A program made the position numbers and the translations under genes. The notes beneath the pieces are model-generated. The model was not told the DNA's origin. It ran no database searches and saw only the letters and a list, made by a program, of their open reading frames with translations. Shown here in pieces: positions 48,331-51,319 of a DNA stretch of 64,000 bases (positions within the stretch are counted from its first letter, which is position 1; every line of letters starts with the position of its first letter). Source of the DNA: the human T2T-CHM13v2.0 reference genome, Homo sapiens. Location: the NCBI RefSeq assembly GCF_009914755.1, contig NC_060930.1; one strand, 5' to 3'.

Positions 48331-48442
48331 CTGCCTGGCCCAGCCCTCAAAGAAACAAAAAACTGCCTGGCCCTTCCCTGCTGCATATCCTTTTAATGTA
48401 TTCAGATTGACTCACTAACACTTAACAAAAATATTGGGGCTG

Positions 48443-51297
48443 GCACTCACTCCATCCTGCTACCCTGTAAAGAAGGTGCCTTCTTCTTCTTTGCCTTCCG
48501 CTATGATTCTAGGACCTCCAATGCAATGGCGATTAGAAATGGTGATAGCCAGGGGAGATCTGGCAAGATGGCCGAATAGGAACAGCTCCAGTCTGCAGGA
48601 GCATCCCTTGGAGGCAAGCCTGGTTCAACATGGACAAATCAATAAACGTAATCCATCACATAAATGGAACCAATGACAAAAACCACATGATTATCACAAT
48701 AGATGCAGAAAAGGCCTTCAATAAAATTCAACACCCCTTCATGCTAAAAACTCTCAATAAACTAGGTATTGATGGAAAGTATCTCAAAATAGTAAGAGCT
48801 ATTTATGACAAACCCACAGCCAATATCATTTTGAATGGGCAAAAGCTAGAAGCATTCTCTTGAAAACCAGCACAAGACAGGGATGCCCTCTGTCACCACT
48901 CCTATTCGTCATAGTATTGGAAGTTCTGGACAGGGCAATCAGGCAAGGGAAAGAAATTAAAGATATTCAATTGGAACAGAGGAAGTCAAATTATCTCTGT
49001 TTGCAGATGACGTAATTGTATATTTAGAAAACCCCATTATCTCAGGCCAAAATCTCCTTAAGCTGATGAGCAACTTCAGCAAAATCTCAGGATACAAAAT
49101 CAATGTGCAAAAATCACAAGCATTCCTATCACCAGTAATAGACAAACAGAGAGCCAAATCATGAGTGAACCCCCATTCACAATTGCTACAAAGAGAATAA
49201 AATACCTAGGAATAAAACTTACAAGGGATGTGAAGGACCTCCTTCAAGAAGAACTACAAACTACTGATCAAGGAAATAAGAGAGGACACAAACAAATGGA
49301 AAAACATTTCATGCTCATTGGTAGGAAGAATCAATATCATGAAAATGGCCATACTGCACTGCGCAAAGTAATTTATAGATTCAATGCTATTCCCACAAGC
49401 CAACATTGACTTTCTTCACAGAATTAGAAAAAAACTACTTTAAATTTCATATGGAACTGAAAAAGAGCCCATATAGCTAAGACAATCCTAAGCAAAAAAA
49501 AAAACCAAGCAGGAGGCATCATGCTACCTGACTTCAAACTATACAACAAGGCTACAGTAAGGAAAACAGCATGGTACTGGTACCAAAACAGATATATAGA
49601 CCAATGGAACAGAACAGAGTCCTCAGAAATAACGCCACACATCTACAACCATGTGATCTTCCACAAACCTGACAAAAACAAGCAATGGGGAAAGGATTCT
49701 CTATTTAATAAGAAATGTTGGGAAAACTCGCTAGCCATATGCAGAAAACTGAAACTGGATGCCTTCCTTACACCTTATACAAAAACCAACTCAAGATGAA
49801 TTAAAGACTTAAATGTAAGACCTAAAACCATAAAAAACTCTAGAAGAAAACCTAGGCAATACAATTCAGGACATAGGCATGGGCAAAGACTTCATTTCTA
49901 AAACACCAAAAGCAATGGCAACAAAAGCCAAAATTGACAAATGGGATCTAATTAAACTAAAGAGCTTCTGCACAGCAAAAGAAACTACCATCAGAGTGAA
50001 CAGGCAACCTACAGAATGGCAGAAAATATTTGCAATCTATTCATCTGACAAAGGGCTAATATCCAGAATCTACAAGGAACTTAAACAAATTTACAAGAAA
50101 AAAACAAACAACCCCATCAAAAAGTTGGCAAGGATATGAACAGACACTCTCAAAAGAAGACATTTATGCAGTCACCAAACATATGAAAAAAGCTCATCAT
50201 CACTGGTCATTAGAGAAATGCAAATCAAAACCACAACGAGATACCATCTCACGCCAGTTAGAATGCTGATCATTAAAAAGTCAGGAAACAACAGATGCTG
50301 GAGAGGATGTGGAGCAGTAGGAATGCTTTTACATTGTTGGTGAAAATGTAAATTAGTTCAACCATTGTGGAAGACAGTGTGGCGATTCCTCAAGGATCTA
50401 GAACCGGAAACACCATTTGACCCAGCAATCCCATTACTGGGTATATACCCAAAGGATTATAAATCATTCTACCATAAAGACACATGCACATGTATGTTTA
50501 TTGCAGCACTATTCACAATAGCAAAGACTTGGAACCAATCCAAATGCCCATCAATGATAGACTGGATAAAGAAAATGTGGCACATATACACCATGGAATA
50601 CTATGCAGCCATAAAAAGGATGAGTTCATGTCCTTTGCGGGGACATGGATGAAGCTGGAAACCATCATACTCAGCAAACTAACAAAAGAACAGAAAACCA
50701 AACACTGCATGTTCTCACTCATAAGTGGGAGTTGAACAATGAGAACACATGGACACAGGGAGGGGAACATCACACACTAGGGCCTGTCGGGGGTGAGGGA
50801 CTAGGGGAGGGATAGCATTAGGAGAAATACCTAATGTAGATGACGGGTTGATGGGTGCAGCAAATCACCATGGCACGTGTATACCTATGTAACAAATCTA
50901 CACGTTGTGCACATGTATCCCAGAACCAAAAGTATGATAGTTAAATAAATAAACAAATAAATTTAAAAATAAATAAATAAGAAGTGGCGATAGCCAAAAC
51001 CTTGCCATGTTTCTGATTTGAAAGGCCAATGTTTGTTGTAGGTTAAGAAAGTCATTTTTAGTTTACTAGGAGTTTTTATTAAATGTTTAAAAAATTATTT
51101 AATGCTATTTTGCATGCATTGAGATGAGTGTATGTCTTCTATACATTTCTGTATTTGGTTTGCAAGCATTTTGTTTTGGCTTTTTAAATTTATATTTATG
51201 ATAGGACTGTAATATTGCATTCTTGTTATGTCTTTGGTTTTGATATCAGTGTTGTACTAGCTTCATAAAATAAAGAAATATTTTCTCTTTAAAAAAA
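48443..51297 (+). pseudogene. Processed retrocopy of a THE1C-LTR-initiated spliced non-coding transcript (~400 nt), interrupted by L1PA7
   Basis: THE1 segment 48443-48508 ends exactly at the MaLR splice donor (gatt|gtaagt) and is fused to antisense old L1M sequence; AATAAA at 51269-51274; A run at 51291-51297; flanking repeat aaaaatattggggctg (48427-48442) / aaaactattggggctg (51294-51309). Confidence 0.75.
48552..50979 (+). mobile_element. L1PA7-like element with intact termini and a ~4.07 kb internal deletion
   Basis: 47 nt of 5' UTR (caagatggccgaataggaacagctcc) joined to RT-region catccct; full 3' end; TSD agaaatggtgatagcca (48535-48551) / agaagtggcgatagcca (50980-50996). Confidence 0.93.
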
Positions 51298-51319
51298 CTA
51301 TTGGGGCTGAGTGGGTGGG

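What the first reader, a model, noticed from the sequence alone, without database searches (positions are those of the whole stretch)
48427..51309. Hidden processed retrocopy of a spliced, THE1-LTR-driven non-coding RNA
Seen: after removing the L1PA7 and one copy of its TSD (48552-50996), a ~400 nt unit remains, flanked by a 15/16 direct repeat (48427-48442 and 51294-51309). It consists of 66 nt of THE1 LTR (gcactcactcc...ccgctatgatt) fused to ~337 nt of antisense old L1M sequence, then AATAAA (51269), 16 nt, and an A run. The THE1 piece stops exactly where the intact THE1D LTRs in this window continue with GTAAGT (15986-15991; 58369-58364 on minus). Established: MaLR LTRs (THE1/MST/MT) act as germline and early-embryo promoters and supply a first exon through this conserved donor, and L1 machinery retrotransposes spliced mRNAs with TSDs. 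Inference: this is a fossil cDNA of an ancient LTR-initiated germline lncRNA. It starts ~25-30 nt after the THE1C TATA (from the remembered consensus), so it is probably 5'-complete, and it is bracketed in age between THE1C and L1PA7 activity. Repeat annotation would show only unrelated fragments. Caveat: the poly(A) is eroded and merges with the TSD.
Basis: partly seen in the sequence, partly recalled or inferred. Interest (0 to 1): 0.8.

Follow-up and report, generated by a model that had tools for sequence, protein, structure and literature searches.

The report
Retrocopy of a THE1-spliced non-coding RNA
This stretch is a roughly 30-million-year-old DNA copy of a spliced, non-coding RNA that joined a short piece of a retrovirus-like THE1 repeat to an exon inside an old L1 repeat, a neat but not unexpected fossil of ancient germline transcription.

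Summary
With the nested L1 and one copy of its target-site duplication removed, a 406-nt unit remains between a 15/16 direct repeat.

The 337-nt antisense-L1 part has one close relative in the genome, at chr6:86,290,936-86,291,278 (minus strand, T2T), 91% identical. Homology starts at the first base after the 66-nt THE1 piece. At the source locus that base follows ...ttgttctAG. Homology ends 16 nt after AATAAA, where the window copy has an A-run and the source runs on as L1.

The THE1 piece ends where related LTRs continue with GTAAGT. It begins 24-28 nt after their TATAA. So this is an L1-made retrocopy of a two-exon, polyadenylated, non-coding RNA. The longest ORF is 26 aa.

One prediction is not met. 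No same-strand THE1 LTR resembling exon 1 lies within 250 kb upstream of the source exon; the six LTRs there are 68-73% identical, against 91-92% for the best copies on other chromosomes.

Subfamily names, the orthologous empty site and present-day expression could not be tested.

Verdict: a real and well-read feature, a new member of a known kind, of moderate interest.

The parts
48427..48442 (+). 5' copy of the target-site duplication of the retrocopy (aaaaatattggggctg). Its last 4 nt (GCTG) also match THE1 sequence just upstream of exon 1.
   Evidence: D4. Microhomology.
48443..48508 (+). Exon 1: 66 nt of a THE1-type MaLR LTR, running from about the expected transcription start to the base before the LTR splice donor.
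   Evidence: 91-92% identical to the best genomic copies. Starts 27 nt after the first T of TATAA and ends before GTAAGT in alignment A2.
48509..48551 (+). First 43 nt of exon 2 (antisense old L1), interrupted by a later L1 insertion. 48535-48551 is the 5' copy of that L1's target-site duplication.
   Evidence: Aligns to source locus L002rc from position 1457, directly after ttctAG. D5.
48552..50979 (+). Later, nested primate L1 insertion with an A-rich tail. Not part of the retrocopied RNA. Internally deleted: its first ~50 nt are not contiguous with its ORF2 part in other copies.
   Evidence: Absent from the source locus. ORF2 pieces. 91-92% identical to the 39 best other copies..
50980..50996 (+). 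3' copy of the nested L1's target-site duplication (agaagtggcgatagcca).
   Evidence: D5. The source locus has one copy.
50997..51290 (+). Remaining 294 nt of exon 2 (antisense old L1), with AATAAA at 51269-51274 and the cleavage point 16 nt later.
   Evidence: The source continues ttctattc... where the copy has A.
51291..51297 (+). Run of 7 A, the residual poly(A) tail. Its last four A overlap the 3' target-site duplication.
51294..51309 (+). 3' copy of the target-site duplication (aaaactattggggctg).

Best explanation
In the germline or early embryo of an anthropoid ancestor, a polyadenylated non-coding RNA was made at what is now chr6:86.29 Mb (T2T).

- Exon 1 was the first 66-70 nt transcribed from a THE1-type LTR. 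It ran from the start site about 25 nt after the LTR's TATAA to the LTR's own GTAAGT splice donor.
- Exon 2 was a 337-nt terminal exon lying antisense in an old L1. It was entered through a ...ttgttctAG acceptor and ended 16 nt after AATAAA.
- L1 endonuclease and reverse transcriptase copied this spliced RNA into chr6:131.92 Mb by target-primed reverse transcription. That left a 16-nt target-site duplication beginning with an A-run, and a short poly(A).
- A primate L1 later inserted into exon 2 of the copy.

Shown: the duplication, the exon-exon junction at GT/AG, the cleavage site, the direction of copying and the lack of an ORF. Inferred: the germline setting, the LTR acting as promoter, and the date. 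The copy itself has no evident function.
For: - Exon 2 has one close relative in 3.1 Gb: C6:86290936-86291234 (-), 92%. The other 38 listed matches are partial and 70-79% identical, apart from one 46-nt match at 91% (40 of 156 candidates scored).
- The unit aligns to the source from nt 67 to nt 403 only, 314/344. That span runs from the first base after THE1 to the last base before the A-run.
- The source reads ...gcattattgttctag|CTAGCACC, with 14 of 20 pyrimidines before the AG. After the cleavage point it continues ttctattctctg....
- In 9 of 11 THE1-type LTRs compared, GT follows the fragment's last base. It is GTAAGT in 5 of those, including 2 of the 3 closest copies in that comparison.
- The 5' end lies 24-28 nt after TATAA in the closest copies.
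- Target-site duplication of 15/16, unique in the window.
- Both flanks are single-copy in the genome.
- Old-L1 homology crosses both exon borders at the source. A tblastn match with a window L1 ORF2 piece spans the acceptor (E 1.7e-6). In 3 of 6 L1 copies homology runs 19-63 nt past the cleavage site at the source, against 0 of 6 in the window.
- The longest ATG ORF is 26 aa.
- Literature, passages read: a THE1B LTR donor splices into an L1MB5 exon at CSF1R (PMC5134097); THE1-initiated transcripts occur in human oocytes and MaLR LTRs carry a canonical donor (PMC6102241); a THE1C-lncRNA is expressed in testis (PMC3836709).
Against: - No source LTR was found. In C6:86291001-86541000, the 250 kb upstream of the source exon, the six same-strand MaLR LTRs are 68-73% identical to exon 1. 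About 92% would be expected.
- Genome-wide lists show the best matches, 89-95%, on other chromosomes. None is on chr6 between 86 and 101 Mb. These lists are incomplete: 40 of 606 and 40 of 149 candidates were scored, and 100 of 390 pattern hits were listed.
- The A-run is only 7 nt and overlaps the duplication.
- A 4-nt microhomology (GCTG) at the 5' junction is the kind seen at 5'-truncated L1-mediated insertions (recalled). The RNA may therefore have started further upstream than the LTR start site.
- The orthologous empty site and any expression evidence are untested.
Confidence: 0.8

Rival explanations
1. A spliced retrocopy, but not LTR-initiated. The RNA started upstream of the LTR, by read-through or from another promoter, and ran through the LTR to its donor. 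The cDNA was then 5'-truncated and joined to the target by GCTG microhomology. The THE1 piece would then be a partial exon, not a promoter-derived first exon.
For: 4-nt microhomology between the end of the 5' duplication and the THE1 sequence just upstream of the fragment: 33 of the 39 other matches start at window 48439, and see alignment A2. No cis LTR could be examined for promoter integrity.
Against: The 5' end falls 24-28 nt after the TATAA of the closest LTR copies, where a TATA-directed start is expected. A random truncation point would rarely land there. THE1 LTRs are documented promoters in testis and oocytes (PMC3836709 and PMC6102241, passages read).
Confidence: 0.12
2. A chimeric retrocopy of two unlinked RNAs. 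A THE1 LTR transcript from another chromosome became joined to the chr6:86.29 Mb exon, either by trans-splicing or by L1 reverse transcriptase switching templates.
For: No matching LTR in cis within 250 kb. The closest 66-mer matches lie on other chromosomes; for example a chr9 copy is 61/66 identical and shares three of the fragment's rarer variants.
Against: The junction sits exactly at GT on the THE1 side and AG on the L1 side, with no ambiguous base. Template switching has no reason to respect splice sites, and a free 3' exon with that 5' end is not a known RNA species (inference). The fragment is close to its subfamily's common sequence, so 91-92% matches elsewhere are expected and do not identify a source; a related 40-mer has 390 genome hits at 3 or fewer mismatches.
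Confidence: 0.05
3. No retrocopy at all: unrelated local repeat fragments (a deleted LTR remnant next to an old L1 fragment) that happen to be flanked by similar 16-mers.
For: This is how a repeat annotation would display the region. The A-run is very short.
Against: The L1 piece is 91% identical to one distant locus and no more than 79% to other family members over comparable lengths, so it is a recent copy of that locus rather than an old resident. Its borders coincide with an acceptor and a cleavage site. Neither flank shows THE1 or L1 homology; both are single-copy. The 15/16 repeat sits exactly at both ends.
Confidence: 0.02

Closest known systems
L1-mediated processed pseudogenes (retrocopies) of spliced polyadenylated RNAs
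   Same: Intron-less copy of a spliced RNA. It ends at a cleavage site after AATAAA with an A-run, is flanked by a 16-nt target-site duplication that begins in an A-run, and has a source locus elsewhere that keeps the intron-side sequence.
   Different: The source RNA is non-coding and made entirely of repeat sequence (THE1 LTR plus antisense L1). Pipelines that search for protein or gene homology, or that mask repeats first, would not report it. The poly(A) remnant is unusually short.
THE1B-LTR-driven CSF1R transcript in Hodgkin lymphoma (described in PMC5134097, Fig. 1a legend read)
   Same: A THE1 LTR starts transcription and its internal splice donor joins to an exon that lies inside an old L1 (L1MB5) element.
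   Different: That is a living transcript, seen as RNA, which continues into a coding gene. Here only a DNA fossil of the RNA exists, the L1 exon is terminal, and the LTR in cis has not been located.
LTR-initiated transcripts of oocytes and testis (THE1 LITs in PMC6102241; THE1C-lncRNA in PMC3836709; MaLR splice donors in PMC5538554; passages read)
   Same: A MaLR/THE1 LTR serves as germline promoter and supplies a short first exon through a donor near the LTR's 3' part. An ATG lies just before the donor, at nt 61-63 of the unit.
   Different: Those are present-day RNA-seq observations. This locus would date such usage to roughly 25-35 million years ago and shows that the product was retrotransposed.
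Template-switch chimeric retrogenes such as U6-L1 chimeras (recalled, no paper read)
   Same: Two unrelated sequences fused inside one pair of target-site duplications, with a poly(A) end.
   Different: In those, the junction lies at the 3' end of the 5' partner and at an arbitrary point of the 3' partner. Here both sides of the junction are canonical splice sites.

Membership tests
L1-mediated processed retrocopy | Exon-exon junction without the intron, at canonical splice sites of the source | tested here: met
   Homology to the source starts at the base after ...ttctAG. The THE1 part ends before GT(A/G)AG in 9 of 11 related LTRs.
L1-mediated processed retrocopy | 3' end at a polyadenylation site, followed by a poly(A) tail | tested here: met
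   AATAAA at 51269-51274, 16 nt, then 7 A. The source continues with non-A sequence at that point. Caveat: the tail is very short and overlaps the duplication.
L1-mediated processed retrocopy | Target-site duplication of about 7-20 nt flanking the whole insert | tested here: met
   16 nt, 15/16, the only two sites in the window at 2 or fewer mismatches.
L1-mediated processed retrocopy | Source gene elsewhere in the genome that contains the intron | tested here: inconclusive
   The source of exon 2 was found, with intron-side sequence. The source of exon 1 was not found within 250 kb upstream.
L1-mediated processed retrocopy | Empty site in lineages that split before the insertion | not testable with these tools
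   No other primate genome is held. The flanks are single-copy, so no paralogous empty site exists either.
LTR-initiated transcript (THE1/MaLR promoter with LTR splice donor) | 5' end at the LTR's TATA-directed start site | tested here: inconclusive
   The fragment starts 27 nt after the first T of TATAA in 3 of the 5 closest copies and 25 nt after it in a fourth; the range is 24-28 nt once the GCTG microhomology is allowed for. No start-site data were available.
LTR-initiated transcript (THE1/MaLR promoter with LTR splice donor) | First exon ends at the donor inside the LTR | tested here: met
   The fragment ends at ...ATGATT, and related LTRs continue GTAAGT or GTGAGG.
LTR-initiated transcript (THE1/MaLR promoter with LTR splice donor) | The LTR lies in cis, same strand, upstream of the exon it splices to | tested here: not met
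   Not met within the 250 kb examined. Six same-strand MaLR LTRs are 68-73% identical to exon 1.
LTR-initiated transcript (THE1/MaLR promoter with LTR splice donor) | RNA evidence of initiation and splicing | not testable with these tools
Template-switch chimeric retrogene | Junction unrelated to splice sites, with the 5' partner ending at its RNA 3' end | tested here: not met
   The junction is GT/AG-exact on both sides.

The most novel reading that the evidence does not exclude
The retrocopy may be the only surviving record of an extinct anthropoid germline gene: a THE1-promoted, spliced lncRNA whose promoter LTR is no longer present at the source locus, or lies more than 250 kb away. By extension, many adjacent 'unrelated repeat fragments' in repeat annotation could be hidden retrocopies of repeat-only spliced RNAs. 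Mined systematically, they would give a dated fossil record of which LTR promoters and donors were used in ancestral germlines.
Probability: 0.3. Interest if true: 0.55.

Novelty: new member of a known kind. Interest (0 to 1): 0.4.

Why it matters
The locus shows, from DNA alone, that a THE1-type LTR's start region and splice donor were used in an ancestral primate germline, and that the resulting repeat-only lncRNA was a substrate for L1 retrotransposition.

Such copies are invisible both to repeat annotation, which sees unrelated fragments, and to pseudogene annotation, which needs a known gene. The case therefore illustrates a blind spot and suggests a way to mine dated evidence of ancient LTR promoter use.

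In itself it is one more retrocopy without evident function. Each mechanistic step (THE1 promoters, MaLR donors, exons in antisense L1, L1-mediated retrocopying) is already established.

Tried and rejected
1. Source LTR. I fetched and searched 250 kb upstream of the source exon by BLAST. Only LTRs 68-73% identical were found, including one 2 kb upstream on the same strand.

2. Genome-wide similarity and pattern searches with the 66-mer, its 5' part, a 40-mer, and two 40-mers from related stored copies. No candidate turned up on chr6 between 86 and 101 Mb. The lists were truncated: 40 of 606 and 40 of 149 candidates scored, and 100 of 390 and 100 of 115 hits listed.

3. Pfam on antisense translations of the source locus. 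One of 10 ORF pieces gave RVT_1 at E 0.065, below the family cut-off. L1 identity therefore rests on tblastn with the window's own L1 ORF2 pieces and on family-level DNA matches.

4. A paralogous empty-site test. Both flanks are single-copy, so the test is impossible.

6. Literature on retrocopies of LTR-initiated lncRNAs. One four-term search gave 16 papers, 14 listed. One phrase search gave 5 papers using 'lncRNA pseudogenes' in other senses. One search on 'genomic fossils' gave 58 papers, 10 listed. From listings and abstract starts only, none described this kind of case. That does not show it is absent from print.

7. Template switching, a local LTR remnant and chance juxtaposition were considered and rejected, as set out under the rival explanations.

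I recorded only pairwise identity to other copies.

Full report
**Observation.** All the coordinates hold.
- The 16-mer at 48427-48442 recurs at 51294-51309 with one mismatch. At up to 2 mismatches these are the only two sites in the 64-kb window, against a mean of 0.17 in shuffles. The repeat finder returns the same pair (D4).
- Inside, an L1 (48552-50979) carries its own duplication, 20 nt at 85% (D5).
- Removing 48552-50996 leaves a 406-nt unit: 66 nt of THE1-type LTR (48443-48508), 337 nt of another sequence, then the A-run, of which the first 3 A belong to the unit.
- AATAAA is at 51269-51274, followed by 16 nt and 7 A.
- The two intact LTRs of the window read GTAAGT at 15986-15991 and at 58369-58364 (minus strand), directly after the position where the fragment ends.

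**The source of exon 2.**
- The window's own genome could be searched. The 297-nt second part has one close relative, C6:86290936-86291234 on the minus strand, at 92%.
- The other 38 listed matches are partial and 70-79% identical, apart from one 46-nt match at 91% (40 of 156 candidates scored).
- Aligned to that locus, the unit matches from nt 67 to nt 403, 314 of 344 columns. That span runs exactly from the first base after the THE1 piece to the last base before the A-run.
- At the source, the base before the match is the G of ...gcattattgttctag, with 14 pyrimidines in the last 20 nt. After the match the source continues ttctattctctg... where the window copy has A.
- The bases on either side of both breakpoints differ between copy and source, so the borders are exact.

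**Direction of copying.**
- At the source the exon is embedded in an old L1 lying antisense. A translated ORF2 piece of the window's own L1 matches across the acceptor (68% over 25 aa, E 1.7e-6). A second piece matches about 900 nt further on, collinear and on the same antisense strand.
- Homology to six other members of that old L1 family runs 19-63 nt beyond the cleavage site in 3 of 6 comparisons at the source, and in 0 of 6 in the window.
- Pfam gave only a sub-threshold RVT_1 match (E 0.065).
- The window flanks 48280-48442 and 51294-51480 are single-copy in the genome.
- So the sequence went from chr6:86.29 Mb to chr6:131.92 Mb, and only the part between an acceptor and a cleavage site was copied.

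**The THE1 side.**
- The fragment is 91-92% identical to the best copies in the genome (60-61 of 66) and 70-77% to the two LTRs in the window.
- In an alignment with five of the closest copies, the fragment's first base lies 27 nt after the first T of the TATAA motif in three of them and 25 nt after it in a fourth. The fifth has an insertion.
- Its last base is followed by GTAAGT in three, GTATGT in one and a mutated site in one.
- Over all 11 LTRs compared, GT follows in 9.
- THE1 homology can extend 4 nt into the duplication (GCTG). In one search, 33 of the 39 other matches begin at window 48439. The RNA's 5' end is therefore placed 24-28 nt after the TATAA.
- This microhomology is also what a 5'-truncated insertion would show (recalled). 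'5'-complete' is likely, not shown.

**The missing LTR.**
I examined C6:86291001-86541000, 250 kb.
- Six same-strand MaLR LTRs lie there, at about 2, 153 (three copies), 190 and 209 kb. They are 68-73% identical to exon 1, far from the roughly 92% expected.
- Genome-wide lists gave nothing on chr6 between 86 and 101 Mb. In one search every chr6 hit was listed, and the nearest minus-strand one upstream is 14.8 Mb away.
- These lists are truncated. The fragment is also close to the common sequence of its subfamily: a related 40-mer has 390 genome hits at 3 or fewer mismatches. Similarity alone therefore cannot single out the source.
- More sequence could not be fetched. The LTR may lie beyond 250 kb, may have been lost, or, less likely, was never in cis.

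**Age.**
- Exon 2 and its source differ by 16 transitions, 6 transversions and 8 gap columns in 5 events. The K2P distance is 0.069.
- With recalled neutral rates of 1.0-1.25e-9 per site per year, this gives about 28-35 million years.
- The nested L1 is 91-92% identical to its 39 best relatives over 841 nt. That is a similar pairwise distance, so divergence does not order the two events, but nesting does: the retrocopy came first.
- The name L1PA7 could not be tested.

**Mechanism and rivals.**
- The exact GT/AG junction, the cleavage-site end and the duplication starting in an A-run are the hallmarks of L1-mediated retrocopying of a spliced, polyadenylated RNA.
- Heritability requires expression in the germline or early embryo (inference).
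- The longest ATG ORF is 26 aa. The ATG just before the LTR donor opens only 22 codons.
- Template switching or trans-splicing of unlinked RNAs would explain the missing cis LTR but not the splice-site-exact junction.
- A local LTR remnant is excluded by the single-copy flanks and by the position of the 5' duplication upstream of the THE1 piece.

**What is known.** Passages read in four papers:
- A THE1B LTR whose donor splices into an L1MB5 exon upstream of CSF1R (PMC5134097).
- THE1-initiated transcripts in human oocytes, and canonical donors in MaLR LTRs (PMC6102241).
- Splice donors and an AUG in ERVL/MaLR LTRs (PMC5538554).
- A THE1C-initiated lncRNA expressed in testis (PMC3836709).

Every step is therefore established. 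What is new is one dated DNA fossil of such an RNA, of a type that repeat and pseudogene annotation both miss. My three literature searches for retrocopies of such RNAs (listings only) found no description, which does not prove there is none.

**Limits.** There was no repeat library, no other primate genome, no expression data and no annotation of the source locus.

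Noticed in passing
L009:2243-2603 (minus strand) = G000 C6:86293243-86293603: A THE1A/B-like solo LTR (name recalled) lies 2 kb upstream of the source exon on the same strand. 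It has a TATAAA and a ...ATAATT|GTGAGG donor. At 68% identity it is not the source of the retrocopy's exon 1, but it could drive the same terminal exon today.
   Followed up: partly
window 48552-48601 versus 48602 onward: The nested L1 is only about 2.4 kb. Its first ~50 nt are not contiguous with the following ORF2 sequence in any of 39 other copies, all of which align only from query position 50-53 onward. From memory the first part resembles the start of the L1 5' UTR, so this would be a 5'-intact but internally deleted element. There is no GT at the break, so it does not look like a spliced L1.
   Followed up: partly
window 48439-48442 and 51306-51309: 4-nt microhomology (GCTG) between the end of the target-site duplication and the THE1 sequence just upstream of the 66-nt fragment. 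It makes the exact 5' end of the copied RNA ambiguous by 4 nt.
   Followed up: yes
L024:2881-6026 (minus strand) = G000 C6:86443881-86447026: Three same-strand MaLR LTR matches lie within 3.2 kb, 153 kb upstream of the source exon. They may be a full-length element plus a solo LTR. All are 69-73% identical to exon 1.
   Followed up: no
window 51332-51359: A 14-nt tandem duplication, TGCACAAGGCACTG / TGCATAAGGCACTG, just downstream of the retrocopy (D11).
   Followed up: no
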